From the NCBI GenBank assembly GCA_016840405.1, contig JAEOSK010000041.1:1-23435 (forward strand): DNA of 23,435 nt, given 5' to 3'. The DNA is from Candidatus Hermodarchaeum yapensis. GTDB taxonomy: Archaea; Asgardarchaeota; Hermodarchaeia; Hermodarchaeales; Hermodarchaeaceae. A program made the position numbers and the translations under genes. This document shows, piece by piece, positions 1 to 15,530 of the stretch. Position 1 is the stretch's first letter; every line of letters begins with the position of its first letter. A model generated the notes under the pieces. It saw nothing but the letters and a program-made list of their open reading frames with translations. It made no database searches and was not told where the DNA came from.

Positions 1-280
1 AGGGTCCTGAACAGGAGCGGATAAGACCGTTAAGTGGTAAATTCCTTGCTTGGCAATGGAATTAGTGTAAAGCCATGGACAACCTTCGGCACCGGTCCTC
101 CAAATTGGTATAGAGAATCAATGGCAATCGCATTGAAACTCATATACAAACTTTCGGGTATGATGCGAGCAAACGAAACCAGAACTAACTCTGTAGAAAG
201 AAATCTCAGGATAATGGAAATTACACCTACATAGAATAAAGATTTTTGAAAAAAAGAGAAGCACCCTATTCAGAAGCTTA

Positions 281-730: not shown

Positions 731-1032
731 ATGATGAATGAATCAATTGATATTTAATCCTTTAGCGGATTTAAGACTCGCTTGATTTTCGTATACTGGT
801 GGGCTTGTTCTCTGACTAAACTAGCAAATCCGCTTTTTGAAATAATCTATAGAATAATTCGCTCTCACGTCTTCGACTCGCCTAGAAACAACCTCACTTT
901 TTATTGTAGGTGTAAATACGGTTATCTACGGAAATATTCATACCGAACTAGACTACCGGCCCGAAGCTCACATAGGACTTCATGTAGGCTGTATAAATCT
1001 TATCTAAAAATTTCAGATAGATAGCTGATTTT

Positions 1033-7154: not shown

Positions 7155-7304
7155 TACAAGGTTAGTATTCGACTTGGGAATATCGGTCATTGTTTGTGTT
7201 ATAACGGAAAAAGAGTGGGCAACCTGTATCAACTTGCCACACACCAGAAACGGAATTTATTATGTTTAAACTCGTGTCCTCCAGAATTCTTGAAAAAATG
7301 AAAT

Positions 7305-7415
7305 TGGTGCGGGGGCCGGGCTTCGAACCCGGGAACTCCTACGAGACAGGATCTTAAGTCCTGCGCCTTTGACCAAGCTTGGCTGTGAGGTCTATGTTGC
7401 GGTAGAAACCCCCGC
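7305..7415 (-). tRNA. tRNA-Leu(TAA) with a 23-nt non-canonical intron at position 8/9 (7385-7407), CCA encoded
   Basis: GCGGGGGT|TTCTACCGCAACATAGACCTCAC|AGCCAAGCTTGGTCAAAGGC...; removing the insert restores a complete type II cloverleaf. BHB: GGC/GCC, GGGG/CCTC, bulges GT|T and AC|A, outer TCTA/TAGA. Confidence 0.8.
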
Positions 7416-7587: not shown

Positions 7588-7771
7588 GCCGAGGTAGCTT
7601 AGCCTGGTTGAGCGCCAGACTAGTAACCATTCTTGAAATATTAGGGTGATACTCATAGGGCTTTGCCCCAGGGTCAGAATAATGTGATGACTGGCGCACC
7701 GGAGAAATCTGGAGGTCGCGGGTTCGAATCGAAGCCCGGTGGGTTTCGCGGAAGGCCCGCCCTCGGCACCA
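7588..7771 (+). tRNA. Elongator-type tRNA-Met(CAT) with three introns: 30/31 (7619-7650), 37/38 (7658-7706), 59/60 (7729-7754)
   Basis: Acceptor GCCGAGG/CCTCGGC-A-CCA; spliced anticodon arm CCAGA-CTCATAA-TCTGG. BHBs: CGCC/GGTG with CTAGTA/TATTAG; CTCA/GGAG (one mismatch); TTCG/CGGA with CGAAGCCC/GGGTTTCG. Confidence 0.9.
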
Positions 7772-7784
7772 TTCGAGTATGTGA

Positions 7785-7861
7785 GCCTCAGTGGCATAGC
7801 ATGGTAGCGCACCACCTTGGTAAGGTGGGGGTCCCGGGTTCGAATCCCGGCTGAGGCTCCA
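7785..7861 (+). tRNA. tRNA-Thr(GGT), intronless, CCA encoded; 13 nt downstream of tRNA-Met (probably co-transcribed)
   Basis: GCCTCAG/CTGAGGC-T-CCA; CCACC-TT-GGT-AA-GGTGG; CCGGG-TTCGAAT-CCCGG. Confidence 0.95.
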
Positions 7862-7934
7862 ATTTTTCATTTATCGTCAGGTCTCTGTTGGAAATAAATC
7901 CGTGTACTGGTTAATTTGGTGTTGTGTTGGTTCA

Positions 7935-9272
7935 ATGGGTCAAACAGAGACCATGCCTTTACCTGAAGTAGTAGAATTTTCTAATCGATCACAAAAAGAA
8001 CTTCAAAATCATACCCAAATAATTGAATCAGTTACACGAACTGTTTGGCTTAATTTACCTGAAGTTACTTCGGATGTTGTCTTTCGACTAAGACGATTAT
8101 ACACCCGAGCAATCAGACGGTTTATTATCAGTCTAAAGGAGGGAAACTGCACAGAAAAGGAAATCTACCATGAACTCAGGAAGCATTCAACTTTTGCTCA
8201 ACTTCCCGCGCGCATGCTAGATCGGGCAGGACGAGAAGCCTATCAATGGTTTTCTTATTGGCGAAAGGAACGCTTTCTAACTAATGAATTACTGAAGAAC
8301 TGGGCTAAGTGGGCTTCGAAGAATGGTATTGATTTACCTGAACCTCTAATGGGAGAAAACCGCATAGTTTCTTATTCAGGAAACCTCAAAGGTTGGCCAG
8401 GCAGTCAACGTGGTCAATGGCCTCAAACAAATCTACGGATATTCATTGACTCAGACTCCCAGGATTTCCATGTATCCATTGATAAGGTGATTATCAAAAC
8501 ACGGGCTGTTATTGGTGGCACACCTGAAAAGCTTCTTCGCCAAGCGCTCAATGGAAAAAAAGGATATACGGTTGGGGCTCCTAGGCTCATTAACCGTGAA
8601 GGCAAGGTCTACTTAGCTGTACCAGTGACAACTAACGTCTCAATCCCAAAGATAGAAAATTTAACCCATCCAACAGTGATAGGTGTGGATTTAGGAATAA
8701 ATACTCTTGCTGCTGCTGTAGCAATTTCCACTGATGAACGAATACTTCCTGCAAAAGTAGTATCTGGAAAACGGCTTAAACATCAGTTAAGACGGCTTTG
8801 GGGAAAACGAAGAAAAGCTTCAAGATTGAAAAAGTCTGAGGAAATTCAAGCCCTTGATAAAAAAACCAAACGTACCATTCAACATTGGACTAACACAACT
8901 GCAAACGAAGTTGTACGGTATGCAACCAAATTCAATCAACCAGTTATTTCGCTTGAAAATCTTAGTACGTATCAAGCCACTCGTAGAAGAACCCCTTGGG
9001 CAAACCCCCAACTAAGAGACCAGCTTGGTAAATGGGCTAGAGGAGAAATTGGCAAAACCATCCAAAGAAACGCTGCATTACAAGGCATTCCTGTCATTTG
9101 GGTAAATGCAGCTTATTCGAGTCGAATCTGCCCTCGAGGATGCCTTTGCATGCTAACAAGATCTAGCCGTTCCGTTTTTCAGTGTCCTGCTTGTGGTGTC
9201 AAACTTCCAAGAGATATCAACGCTGCGATTGAACTAGCACGTCGCGGTATACGTCTAATAAAGAAATGTTAA
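7935..9272 (+). CDS. tnpB: TnpB/Cas12f-like RNA-guided endonuclease, catalytic residues intact, no adjacent transposase or CRISPR array
   Basis: RuvC-I VIGVDLGINTLA, RuvC-II ISLENLS, Zn ribbon VNAAYSSRICPRGC...FQCPACG, RuvC-III RDINAAIELARRG. Start taken as ATG 7935 (ORF opens at GTG 7902). Confidence 0.9.
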   Translation: MGQTETMPLPEVVEFSNRSQKELQNHTQIIESVTRTVWLNLPEVTSDVVFRLRRLYTRAIRRFIISLKEGNCTEKEIYHELRKHSTFAQLPARMLDRAGREAYQWFSYWRKERFLTNELLKNWAKWASKNGIDLPEPLMGENRIVSYSGNLKGWPGSQRGQWPQTNLRIFIDSDSQDFHVSIDKVIIKTRAVIGGTPEKLLRQALNGKKGYTVGAPRLINREGKVYLAVPVTTNVSIPKIENLTHPTVIGVDLGINTLAAAVAISTDERILPAKVVSGKRLKHQLRRLWGKRRKASRLKKSEEIQALDKKTKRTIQHWTNTTANEVVRYATKFNQPVISLENLSTYQATRRRTPWANPQLRDQLGKWARGEIGKTIQRNAALQGIPVIWVNAAYSSRICPRGCLCMLTRSSRSVFQCPACGVKLPRDINAAIELARRGIRLIKKC

Positions 9273-9289
9273 GATGGAATAACTCACTA

Positions 9290-9503
9290 TGTTTGTGGAC
9301 AACGCAAACACGCCCTCCAAGACCATTAAATGGCTGGATGGTGAGGGCAACGGAAAGAGCCCTGATTTGGAACGGGTAAGTCCGATATTCTTAAGCACTC
9401 TTGCCTGGCAAGAACGCTAGTGTATCCCCTCTTGCTCGATATCGGCTCCATTCCAACGAATCGTGAACTTCATGTACACGAACTTTCTCGCCCGAGGCTC
9501 CAT
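9290..9503 (+). ncRNA. Putative omegaRNA-like scaffold (about 9290-9487) plus tRNA-Thr-derived 3' segment (9489-9503)
   Basis: Non-coding stretch with nested stems: TGTTTGT/GCAAACA, GCCCTC/GAGGGC, TTGGAA/TTCCAA, CCGATAT/ATATCGG, TCTTGC/GCAAGA, TCGTG/CACGA. Lies directly 3' of tnpB and ends in CGCCCGAGGCTCCAT, identical to 1970-1984. Confidence 0.65.
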
Positions 9504-9564
9504 CTTAACACTATTTATTTTTCACCTGCATGTTTTCTATGAGAGATTTTTAAGTGTCTAAAGG

Positions 9565-10690: not shown

Positions 10691-11287
10691 TCATTTTTCT
10701 GCGGCAATATCGGCTGGTGCTACAAGATAGTAGGTGGTTTCGCCCTGTCGATCCAATACAGCAAGCATGAGTTTTTTCCGATTTCTTTTCGCCTGTTTGC
10801 TAAAAGCATCTAGCTCTGTGACTTTCAGGGGTGATCCCTCTGAAATGGCGCAAACAAAGTATTTTGCTGTAGCTTCGTTCAATTTTGCTCCCCGAGGATA
10901 GACGCGAAATAATAATCCTTTCCCGTATCCTGTACGAACGACATATCCTCTACTTCGCAAGTCACTGTAAACCAAGAACCGAGTCCAAAGTCCTGGGTGT
11001 CCTTCTGCTAACCGTTCAAGTAGATCTGAAAATTCGAGCTTAGTACCTTCTGTGTCATGAACTTGAATGCGTTCGCGTCGGCTTAGCAACAAGGCTTCTT
11101 CAGGTTCCAAGGTTAACTTTGCGGTGCTCGTCAAGGTTCCATAATACCCGGCTTCATACAGTACGGGCGCATATTCTCCCTTCACTACTACGCGTCCTCG
11201 TACAAATTTCGCTGGAATTGCCTCATCTGGAAGGTGAGACCGTTCGCTCTCTGAGGCAGTTTTTTTCACCGGTTTTTCTCCAGCCAT
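10691..11287 (-). CDS. endA: tRNA-intron (splicing) endonuclease subunit, probably the non-catalytic/structural subunit
   Basis: FLVYSDLRSRGYVVRTG...FRVYPRG...RKKLMLAVLDRQGETTYY is the EndA fold signature. The catalytic His position reads Thr (EATAKYFV). Confidence 0.88.
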   Translation of the reverse strand: MAGEKPVKKTASESERSHLPDEAIPAKFVRGRVVVKGEYAPVLYEAGYYGTLTSTAKLTLEPEEALLLSRRERIQVHDTEGTKLEFSDLLERLAEGHPGLWTRFLVYSDLRSRGYVVRTGYGKGLLFRVYPRGAKLNEATAKYFVCAISEGSPLKVTELDAFSKQAKRNRKKLMLAVLDRQGETTYYLVAPADIAAEK

Positions 11288-13525: not shown

Positions 13526-13633
13526 GCCCGTTTAGTGTAGCCAGGTCTATCATCTGGGACTGTCAATGATCTATGGGTTGCATAGGTCTGCGGATCTCCT
13601 AGGACTCGGGTTCGAATCCCGGAACGGGCGCCA
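13526..13633 (+). tRNA. tRNA-Asp(GTC) with 30-nt canonical intron (13566-13595), CCA encoded
   Basis: GCCCGTT/AACGGGC-G-CCA; TGGGA-CT-GTC-A|C-TCCTA; BHB CTGT/GCGG with outer GATCTATG/CATAGGTC; TTTAAAT box at about 13492. Confidence 0.93.
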
Positions 13634-14345: not shown

Positions 14346-15530
14346 ATGCTATGAACCTACAGGTATCGCTTATACCCGAATAAGGTTCAGCGTGAACAAA
14401 TTCGTAAAAACATTGATGCTTGTCGGTTCGTCTATAATTGGGCCTTGGAACAAAAGAAACTCGCCTATGAGACTGATAGTAAATGTCTCAGCTGGTACGA
14501 CCTGAACTATTTACTCACAAGTCTGAAACAAGACCATTCCTTTCTAAAGGAAGCCTACTCTCAGTCTCTTATACAGGCCATTAAGCGAGTAATTCTAGCG
14601 TATAAACACTTCTTTCGGCGAGTCAAACTAAGAAAGAACCCTGGATATCCCAAATTTAAAAGCAGAAAGGCTCGTAGACAGTCTTTTGTTGTCCCGCAAT
14701 TTTTTGATGTTGACTTCGAAGCCAATCGAGTATGTCTGCCTAAAATTGGGAAGATAAAAGCCGTCTTTCATCGAAGGTTCACAGGCAATCCTAAAGAATG
14801 CATAGTTGTTTCTACTAAAACGGGTAAGTTCTTCATTTGTATCGTAGTAGAGGATGGAAAACAGCCTCCTAGAAAGAGATTGATAACCTCAGAGGGTTCA
14901 GTTGGCATTGATGTCGGGCTCACTTCCTATGCTACACTCTCCTCTGGTGAGAAAATTAAAAATCCGCGACCGATTCAACATGGGTTCAAAAGGTTACGCT
15001 GTCTTCATCAAAGGTTAAGTAAAAAGAAGAAGGGGTCGAAAAACAGAGAGAAAGCAAGATACCGGCTAGCCCGATACTATGAACATGTTGCTAATCAGCG
15101 AATAGACTTTTTACAGAAACTATCCACTCGAATAATTCGCGAGAACCAAGCGATTATAGTGGAGAGTTTGAACGTTCGTGGCATGATGGGAAATAGAAAG
15201 CTTGCTAGACAAATTTCAGATGCGGCATGGTCTAAATTTCTTCGAATGTTGAAGGATAAAGCCGAAATATGTGGCGTAACCCTGATTGAGATTGGGCGAT
15301 TTGAGTCTACAAGTAGACTCTGTTCAGCTTGTGGATTCAAAAATACTGCACTTCAAATAGCAGATCGAGCCTGGGTATGCCCAGAATGTAGAACCCACCA
15401 TGACCGGGATATTAATGCCGCGCAAAACATAAAGATGATAGGACTTCGGTCTATCATGACACCGGGGGAACCTCGGGAAGGGCCTGTGGAGTTGTCAGCA
15501 CTGGCTGAAGCATTGAAGCAGGAAACCTAA
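14346..15530 (+). pseudogene. tnpB: IS200/IS605 (IS1341-type) tnpB with an in-frame TGA at codon 3; remainder intact
   Basis: ATG CTA TGA ACC TAC AGG TAT CGC TTA TAC CCG reads M-L-*-TYRYRLYPNKVQ...CRFVYNWAL (typical OrfB HTH start), in frame with 14445-15530. GIDVGL, IIVESL, CSACG/CPEC and DRDINAA are present. Confidence 0.85.

What the first reader, a model, noticed from the sequence alone, without database searches (positions are those of the whole stretch)
7785..9503. Stand-alone TnpB/Cas12f-like nuclease with a structured RNA whose guide position is a tRNA-Thr 3' end
Seen: an intact RuvC (D-E-D) TnpB-family gene starts about 70 nt after tRNA-Thr(GGT), with no tnpA, no array and no TCAC/TCAA-type IS end. 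It is followed by about 200 nt of densely paired non-coding sequence. That sequence ends in TTCTCGC-CCGAGGC-T-CCA, which reads as the T-stem 3' strand, acceptor strand, U73 and CCA of a Thr tRNA. 15 nt (9489-9503) are identical to tRNA-Thr(TGT) at 1970-1984, and the segment fits that isoacceptor better than the adjacent GGT gene (CGGCTGAGGCTCCA), so it is not a simple local duplication. Established: TnpB omegaRNAs carry the guide at their 3' end, and tRNA 3' ends are the usual att sites of integrative elements. Inference: a domesticated RNA-guided nuclease aimed at tRNA-Thr 3'/att sequence, for defence against or competition between tRNA-integrating elements, or for homing to tRNA loci. The 5 nt just 5' of the match (TTTCT vs host ATCCC) differ at 3 positions, which could protect the host gene. 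A CCA end could also let tRNA-processing enzymes mature the guide.
Basis: partly seen in the sequence, partly recalled or inferred. Interest (0 to 1): 0.88.

Follow-up and report, generated by a model that had tools for sequence, protein, structure and literature searches.

The report
tRNA-targeting TnpB homing cassette
A transposase-less RNA-guided nuclease gene (TnpB) sits behind a threonine tRNA gene of an Asgard archaeon; its guide copies the version of that tRNA gene found in relatives without the insert, and it has spread sideways into the same spot in several species like a natural gene drive, though cutting is untested.

Summary
An intact TnpB gene (7935-9272) follows tRNA-Thr(GGT). 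Behind it lies a covarying omega-RNA scaffold (about 9287-9483), then a 14-nt tRNA-Thr 3' end (9489-9502) at the guide position.

In ten congeneric genomes the site is empty, and in seven of them the orthologous tRNA-Thr(GGT) ends in exactly these 14 nt. All five occupied lineages carry a recoded tRNA (positions 49, 65, 67; position 6 in four). That puts two mismatches in the guide's seed.

The 30 nt 9477-9506 are invariant. This ties for the longest invariant run in the 1.8-kb alignment.

Occupied and empty alleles alternate between sister genomes. Four-fold sites of tnpB are 0.60-0.74 identical where host genes are saturated (0.30-0.43), so the cassette entered the same site horizontally. 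The 86%-complete genome has no TnpA or serine recombinase.

A 52% paralogue shows the same logic at tRNA-Pro: its guide matches the intron-less allele, and the linked gene carries two introns around the match.

Best reading (about 0.55): an RNA-guided homing cassette. Cleavage, TAM and RNA ends are untested.

The scan noted similar cassettes in other Asgard genomes before. Those notes are not independent evidence.

The parts
7785..7861 (+). tRNA-Thr(GGT), 'type 2' allele linked to the cassette (C49, G65, T67, A6). It differs from the guide at 2 of 14 positions.
   Evidence: every occupied locus has this 3' end; seven of the ten empty loci have the 'type 1' end, which equals the fragment.
7862..7934 (+). 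Left junction (somewhere in 7862-7873; a variable 1-5 nt spacer, then a T-rich run), followed by the conserved left-end/promoter-like block shared with paralogues.
7935..9272 (+). tnpB, 445 aa from the conserved ATG (the GTG at 7902 is also open). RuvC D-E-D and the zinc finger are intact; dN/dS is about 0.2.
9287..9483 (+). omega-RNA scaffold: a long-range closing helix plus four inner stems, ending in ..GAAC.
   Evidence: 13 of 40 pairs compensatory; homology with paralogues ends at GAAC
9484..9509 (+). Guide region. 9484-9488 take the place a TAM would hold in a target. 9489-9502 equal tRNA-Thr positions 63-76 of the empty allele. 9503-9509 are a cassette-specific tail. 9477-9506 are invariant in 5 lineages.
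9510..9534 (+). Rest of the cassette-specific spacer (to 9517), an oligo-T terminator-like run, and the native tRNA trailer that follows CCA directly in empty alleles. Homology with empty sites resumes at 9535.
   Evidence: (an empty-type contig joins 7861 to 9538)
1..174 (+). 3' part of the paralogue's omega-RNA (its gene is on contig C11, which abuts the window start). Its guide region 156-174 matches an exon piece of tRNA-Pro(TGG).

Best explanation
The 1.64-kb insert is an RNA-guided homing cassette with no transposase.

Proposed mechanism:
- TnpB loads the omega-RNA transcribed just behind its gene.
- The RNA's 3' guide carries the last 14 nt of the cassette-free allele of tRNA-Thr(GGT).
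- The complex would cut that allele near the tRNA 3' end, when DNA of a cassette-free relative meets a cassette-bearing genome or the reverse.
- Repair from the occupied allele copies in the cassette and nearby markers.
- The tRNA copy linked to the cassette is spared because positions 65 and 67 differ in the guide's seed. These changes are compensated at positions 49 and 6, so the tRNA still folds.
- The TGT and CGT genes share the 14 nt but have another T-loop where the TAM would lie.

Shown: the anatomy, the constraint, the match between guide and empty allele, the polymorphism and the horizontal spread.
Inferred: cleavage, the TAM, repair-mediated copying and the RNA ends.
For: (1) Site. 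All orthologues (73-94% aa, five lineages) lie between tRNA-Thr(GGT) and rpiA. Ten congeneric genomes have an empty site.
(2) Guide and allele. Seven empty alleles end in the very 14 nt of the guide. All occupied alleles carry the recoded end.
(3) Same-species pair. M62 (occupied) and G012 (empty) have about 99% identical flanks. Their tRNAs differ only at positions 49, 65 and 67, leaving a G6-U67 pair.
(4) Tree. On the rpiA tree, occupied and empty loci are sisters three times.
(5) Age. Four-fold-site identity between occupied lineages is 0.60-0.74 in tnpB against 0.30-0.43 in rpiA, EndA and HycI. dS is 0.5-0.8 against more than 2.4. dN/dS is about 0.2.
(6) Constraint. 9477-9506 ties with the tRNA's own 3' end as the longest invariant run. 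The neutral-like per-site invariance is 0.48.
(7) Protein and RNA. The catalytic residues are intact and the scaffold covaries with the guide unpaired.
(8) No transposase. No TnpA or serine recombinase was found.
(9) Paralogue. Its guide matches the intron-less tRNA-Pro allele. All six genomes with the paralogue have introns on both sides of the matched 14-nt exon piece. A sister clade's antisense guide spans the exon junction that its intron splits.
(10) Decay forms expected of a homing cycle. G003 has the recoded tRNA and the cassette-type trailer but no cassette. G001 has an intron-bearing tRNA-Pro with only a left-end remnant. The M57 lineage has a frameshift.
Against: - No cleavage, TAM or RNA-end data exist.
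- The guide matches empty alleles over only 14-15 contiguous nt. The invariant tail (9503-9509) does not match the trailers of sampled empty alleles.
- If the guide starts right after GAAC, its first 5 nt mismatch the tRNA.
- The co-conversion pattern would also arise from passive recombination.
- The recoded tRNA could predate the cassette.
- The genomes are MAGs.
- RNA contigs cover only parts of the tnpB coding region, and DNA carry-over is not excluded.
- How the first insertion arose is unexplained, given its imperfect 17-nt direct repeat.
Confidence: 0.55

Rival explanations
1. Passive relic. A small element entered the tRNA gene once, through a tyrosine integrase acting in trans or an IS-type event. 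It duplicated the tRNA 3' end as an att-like repeat. The haplotype then moved among species by ordinary homologous recombination. The fragment is a scar that happens to lie where the guide sits.
For: An imperfect 17-nt direct repeat runs from the T-loop to CCA, which is typical of tRNA integration. The native trailer lies to the right of the fragment. Caldiarchaeum shows a similar insertion with a tRNA fragment (PMC3293823). Passive recombination also gives linked flanking markers.
Against: The cassette has no integrase. A neutral scar would not be the most conserved 30 nt of the element. The cassette-specific 7-15 nt after CCA are not host sequence. tnpB is under purifying selection with its active site intact. 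Repeated entry into diverged species without any drive is unlikely. The paralogue repeats the guide-versus-allele logic on either DNA strand.
Confidence: 0.2
2. Host-beneficial defence. The fixed guide targets the attP of viruses or plasmids that integrate into tRNA-Thr. The recoded host tRNA avoids self-cutting and also removes the attB.
For: The guide covers the part of a tRNA that integrative elements usually copy. The invariant tail after CCA matches no sampled host trailer and could be foreign flank.
Against: IMG/VR has no match to the 18-mer that spans CCA and the tail. JGI metagenomes have no match other than the locus itself. The cassette is absent from most close relatives and behaves as a young, horizontally moving insert. 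One lineage carries a frameshift.
Confidence: 0.12
3. A non-cutting role. The complex binds DNA or RNA without cleavage, for instance to regulate tRNA-Thr or rpiA transcription, or to use the CCA-ended tail as a tRNA mimic.
For: The position is fixed next to a tRNA and the rpiA promoter. The guide ends in a discriminator base plus CCA.
Against: The RuvC triad is invariant, unlike in TldR-type repressors. The genome holds no target with a full match. No 5' acceptor strand is present to form a minihelix. The locus is dispensable in sister genomes.
Confidence: 0.05

Closest known systems
IS200/IS605 TnpB with omega-RNA (ISDra2 type; restorative homing; reviewed in PMC13565253)
   Same: Same protein family, with RuvC and a zinc finger. 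A structured RNA begins at the gene's 3' end, with the guide at the RNA's 3' end. The guide matches the site as it looks without the element.
   Different: No TnpA in the genome, no recognisable IS end hairpins, a single fixed site in every lineage, and a guide that is invariant across species. The target lies inside an essential tRNA gene, and a recoded resistant copy is linked to the cassette.
TnpB-driven gene drive of IS605 in plasmids (bioRxiv 10.1101/2025.02.20.638934; cited in PMC13565253)
   Same: Spread of the element into copies that lack it depends on TnpB, not on TnpA. That is the mechanism proposed here.
   Different: That case was shown experimentally, on multicopy bacterial plasmids, for an ordinary IS. 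Here the case is chromosomal, archaeal, between species, inferred from comparison only, and includes tRNA recoding.
Free-standing homing endonucleases such as phage T4 SegB, which cuts tRNA genes (PMC2330249, as cited in PMC13565253)
   Same: A nuclease gene beside tRNA genes, a target in the allele lacking it, a resistant linked allele, co-conversion of flanking markers, and patchy distribution among close relatives.
   Different: Recognition here would be by a guide RNA, not by the protein.
tRNA-Thr(GGU) gene disruption in Caldiarchaeum subterraneum (Sugahara et al. 2012, PMC3293823)
   Same: Population heterogeneity at a tRNA-Thr(GGU) locus. A roughly 1.9-kb insertion is flanked by an orphan tRNA fragment and a remodelled tRNA that gained an intron. 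This matches the tRNA-Pro paralogue locus here.
   Different: That element was called a putative recombinase element. No guide RNA or nuclease logic was proposed, and I did not test whether its ORF is a TnpB.
TldR, TnpB-like nuclease-dead repressors (as summarised in PMC13565253)
   Same: An immobilised TnpB relative with a conserved guide aimed at a host sequence.
   Different: TldRs have lost the RuvC residues and are vertically kept regulators. This protein keeps D-E-D and behaves as a young selfish insert.

Membership tests
TnpB / OMEGA RNA-guided nuclease | RuvC-like domain with the D-E-D triad, plus a zinc-finger (TNB) domain | tested here: met
   Pfam PF01385 and PF07282 above their cut-offs. 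D263, E352, D438 and four Cys are invariant. The protein aligns to solved TnpB/Cas12f chains.
TnpB / OMEGA RNA-guided nuclease | A conserved structured RNA downstream of, or overlapping, the gene's 3' end, with a variable or targeting 3' segment | tested here: met
   Consensus fold with 13 compensatory pairs. Scaffold homology ends at GAAC in four clades, each followed by unrelated sequence. Expression of the RNA was not shown.
TnpB / OMEGA RNA-guided nuclease | RNA-guided, TAM-dependent DNA cleavage | not testable with these tools
   A TAM of the form RRTYC is only inferred, from three guide/target pairs.
IS200/IS605 or IS607 transposon | A TnpA (Y1 or serine recombinase) in the element or the genome, multiple copies, and end hairpins | tested here: not met
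   No PF01797 or PF00239 match in the 86%-complete genome. There is one copy, plus one 52% paralogue at another fixed site. Every orthologue is at the same site.
Homing endonuclease gene (functional class) | Presence/absence polymorphism at one site among close relatives, and an element younger than its flanks | tested here: met
   One metagenome holds both occupied contigs and an empty-type joint.
Homing endonuclease gene (functional class) | The nuclease recognises the empty allele, and the linked allele is resistant | tested here: inconclusive
   At sequence level, the guide equals the empty allele over 14 nt and the linked tRNA has 2 seed mismatches. The paralogue's target is flanked or split by introns. 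Cleavage is untested.
tRNA-integrating element with a tyrosine integrase | An integrase gene, and att direct repeats made of the tRNA 3' part | tested here: not met
   An imperfect 17-nt repeat is present. The 1.64-kb insert encodes only tnpB. An integrase acting in trans was not searched for.
TldR (nuclease-dead TnpB repressor) | Loss of the RuvC catalytic residues | tested here: not met
   The triad is invariant.

The most novel reading that the evidence does not exclude
Transposase-less TnpB cassettes act as RNA-guided homing elements on archaeal tRNA genes. They also drive tRNA gene remodelling: the resistant tRNA copies they carry (recoded stems here, non-canonical introns at the tRNA-Pro paralogue locus and the nearby tRNA(CAT)) spread by co-conversion. 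This would give a concrete origin for many odd tRNA introns and orphan tRNA fragments in Asgard and TACK archaea.
Probability: 0.3. Interest if true: 0.9.

Novelty: new variant of a known kind. Interest (0 to 1): 0.8.

Why it matters
TnpB is the ancestor of Cas12, and its natural role is still debated. A fixed-site cassette without a transposase, aimed at an essential tRNA gene and carrying its own resistant tRNA copy, would be a natural RNA-guided gene drive in the closest archaeal relatives of eukaryotes.

It would make an old idea directly testable: that tRNA introns and recoded or split tRNA genes arise as protection against elements that target tRNA genes. It would also give a mechanism for the heterogeneity at tRNA loci seen in archaeal populations. 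Finally, the cassette is a compact nuclease with a natural guide/target/immune-allele triplet, which suits biochemistry.

Tried and rejected
- Exact search for the guide plus tail found nothing in IMG/VR. In JGI metagenomes it found only the locus itself, L074 and L075. So no foreign target was found, and no empty allele with the cassette-type trailer.
- The genome-contig scan with the protein returned only the G010 relative.
- A screen of the 450 nt downstream of all 14 TnpB-like genes in the genome for tRNA matches gave nothing. 12-mers are at chance level (23% of random windows). A 16-nt hit at C17 fell in an ARAGORN false call. Matches to a 'tRNA-Glu' call were scaffold motifs of another omega-RNA family. 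The tRNA-guide pattern is therefore specific to this protein family.
- I considered that the fragment was a remnant of a second, disrupted tRNA. No 5' half lies upstream of the left end.
- I considered a giant intron splitting the tRNA. The annotated tRNA is complete and self-consistent.
- I first read the tRNA-Pro 5' piece as part of the guide. It lies about 790 nt beyond the guide in this window (66-85 nt in L018 and L065) and is a separate orphan fragment.
- Similarity between an empty trailer (G012) and the left end (8-9 nt) was judged to be chance.
- The RNA contigs did not cover the omega-RNA, so the RNA ends remain unknown.

Full report
**What is there.** The window is contig C36 of a 2.7-Mb, 86%-complete archaeal MAG. 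A close relative's record names it Candidatus Hermodarchaeota, an Asgard group.

- tRNA-Thr(GGT) lies at 7785-7861.
- An ORF opens at GTG 7902 with a conserved ATG at 7935, and ends at 9272. It hits OrfB_IS605 and Cas12f1-like TNB and aligns to solved TnpB/Cas12f chains.
- D263, E352, D438 and four zinc-finger cysteines are invariant in 13 homologues.
- The 14 nt 9489-9502 equal the 3' ends of tRNA-Thr(TGT) at 1884-1983 and of tRNA-Thr(CGT) on contig C76. The 15th base matches TGT only.

**The RNA.** I aligned the 3' non-coding regions of five orthologous lineages and three paralogues.

- The consensus structure has 40 pairs, 13 of them kept through changes on both sides. It has a long-range closing helix, and the last roughly 30 nt are unpaired.
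- Homology with four paralogue groups stops at a shared ..GAAC (9480-9483). Behind it each group has unrelated sequence.
- This is the anatomy of a TnpB omega-RNA, and the tRNA fragment begins 5 nt into the guide position.

**Empty sites change the reading.**

- All orthologues found (73-94% aa: G010/L056, L057-59, L060-62, L063-64, and the window's own species L075) sit between tRNA-Thr(GGT) and rpiA.
- In ten other genomes of the genus the tRNA is followed within 15-60 nt by the rpiA promoter.
- In seven of these the tRNA-Thr(GGT) gene itself ends in the 14 nt of the fragment ('type 1').
- Every occupied locus has a 'type 2' end instead, which differs at tRNA positions 65 and 67. These are compensated at position 49 (all five lineages) and position 6 (four of five).
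- So the fragment is the alternative allele of the local gene, not a piece of the TGT isoacceptor.

**Boundaries.** The best pair is the same-species comparison M62 (occupied) versus G012 (empty).

- Their flanks are about 99% identical. Their tRNAs differ only at positions 49, 65 and 67, which leaves a G6-U67 wobble pair.
- To the right of the fragment come 7-15 cassette-specific nt, and then the trailer that follows CCA directly in the empty sister.
- G010 versus G013 shows the same pattern.
- In the window, homology to empty sites ends at 7861 and resumes at 9535.
- One estuary metagenome holds both occupied contigs and an empty-type contig that joins 7861 to 9538.

**Constraint.**

- In the five-lineage alignment, 9477-9506 (scaffold end, fragment and 4 more nt) is invariant. 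It ties with the tRNA's own 3' end as the longest invariant run.
- Only 48% of four-fold sites and 72% of scaffold columns are invariant.
- The loop just upstream and the sequence after 9509 do vary. A neutral scar would not behave like this.

**Age and spread.**

- On an rpiA tree, occupied and empty loci are sisters three times: G010/G013, M60/G012, and G000+M57/G002.
- Between occupied lineages, four-fold sites of tnpB are 0.60-0.74 identical. Those of rpiA, EndA and HycI are at saturation (0.30-0.43). dS is 0.5-0.8 against more than 2.4.
- dN/dS of tnpB is about 0.2.
- The cassette is therefore much younger than the species it sits in. It entered the same site repeatedly or by introgression, while remaining a functional gene.
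- No Y1 TnpA or serine recombinase was found in the genome.
- Flanking markers travel with the cassette in a gradient: positions 65, 67 and 49 in 5 of 5 lineages; position 6 in 4 of 5; an anticodon-stem variant in 3 of 5; a 32-nt intron in the tRNA(CAT) about 200 nt upstream in 3 of the 4 lineages where it could be read.
- Decay forms exist. G003 has the type 2 tRNA and the cassette-type trailer but no cassette. G005 has type 2 with an empty-type trailer. The M57 lineage has a +1 frameshift at codon 17, carried by contigs from three separate assemblies.

**The paralogue.** A 52% paralogue lies on contig C11, which abuts the window start. Window 1-174 holds the end of its RNA.

- It sits beside 5S rRNA and tRNA-Pro(TGG) in at least six genomes.
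- Genomes without it (G002, G014, G011) have an intron-less 77-nt tRNA-Pro.
- All six genomes with it have two non-canonical introns that flank a 14-nt exon piece. 13 nt of that piece equal the paralogue's conserved guide region.
- A sister clade (L072) carries an antisense guide that spans the exon junction. Its tRNA-Pro has one intron, which splits exactly that junction.
- G001 and G010 keep the introns without the nuclease; G001 retains a left-end remnant.
- ARAGORN finds no other tRNA-Pro, so I take this gene to be in use (inference).
- The three guide/target pairs share a possible TAM of the form RRTYC. The TGT and CGT tRNA-Thr genes, and the cassette's own DNA, lack it. With three cases this is only a lead.

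**Explanation.**

- The data fit an RNA-guided homing cassette. The guide specifies the cassette-free allele of an essential, slowly evolving gene. A cut near the tRNA 3' end would fall where both junction irregularities lie, if TnpB cuts 15-21 nt from the TAM as reported for ISDra2 (from my own knowledge). Repair from an occupied allele would then copy the cassette together with its resistant tRNA end.
- TnpB-dependent, TnpA-independent drive has been reported for IS605 on plasmids (bioRxiv 10.1101/2025.02.20.638934, as summarised in PMC13565253).
- Free-standing protein homing endonucleases that cut tRNA genes are known, for example T4 SegB.
- A survey of TnpB diversity lists immobile, active TnpBs but makes no mention of tRNA.
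- The closest descriptive precedent is the Caldiarchaeum tRNA-Thr(GGU) locus (PMC3293823).
- Rivals are an att-type scar spread passively, a defence guide against attP sites, and a non-cutting role. Their weights are given in the rival explanations.

**Caveats.**

- Nothing here shows cleavage, the TAM or the RNA ends.
- The guide's match to sampled empty alleles is 14-15 nt, and the invariant tail is unexplained.
- The origin of the first insertion, and whether the type 2 tRNA predates it, are open.
- The genomes are MAGs.
- Metatranscriptome contigs cover only parts of the tnpB coding region.
- Earlier notes of this scan describe similar cassettes in other Asgard genomes. I reached my reading before seeing them, and they are not independent evidence.

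Noticed in passing
window 1-174 (+), with G000 contig C11:237-1538: The window starts inside the omega-RNA of a 52% TnpB paralogue. Its guide region (156-174) matches an exon piece of the neighbouring tRNA-Pro(TGG). That gene carries two non-canonical introns in every genome that has the paralogue, and none in G002, G014 and G011.
   Followed up: yes
window 946-963 (-): An orphan copy of the first 17-18 nt of tRNA-Pro. Its leader resembles that of the tRNA-Pro gene on C11; in L065 the equivalent fragment carries the leader of intron-less alleles. It lies beyond the paralogue cassette and recalls the tRNA fragment described in Caldiarchaeum (PMC3293823).
   Followed up: partly
window 7588-7771 (+): A tRNA with a CAT anticodon and three introns, missed by ARAGORN and by Rfam at gathering score. 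One intron (7619-7650, 32 nt) is present or absent among relatives. In G000, G010 and M57 it travels with the occupied haplotype, while their empty sisters lack it.
   Followed up: partly
window 7301-7413 (-) and 2713-2824: Class II tRNA-Leu-like genes with a non-canonical intron, not called by either tRNA tool. They explain the many 'repeat' hits across the genus. ARAGORN finds no tRNA-Pro at all in this genome.
   Followed up: partly
window 14445-15530 (+): A second TnpB of a different family (23% identity), intact by Pfam, about 800 nt downstream of the tRNA at 13526-13630. No tRNA match was seen in its 3' flank.
   Followed up: partly
window 10691-11287 (-): The tRNA-splicing endonuclease gene (EndA) lies in the same tRNA- and TnpB-rich neighbourhood, next to rpiA, and keeps this position in relatives.
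   Followed up: no
window 8031-8052 and 9475-9484: A 22-nt invariant stretch inside tnpB contains a 10-nt copy of the scaffold end (TACACGAACT). This may be chance on top of a conserved protein motif, or a nucleic-acid signal.
   Followed up: no
L057:1471-1521 (also L058, L059): The closest orthologue lineage (94% aa) has a 1-nt insertion at codon 17 of tnpB. The longest ORF is then 352 aa, while the RNA and guide stay intact.
   Followed up: yes
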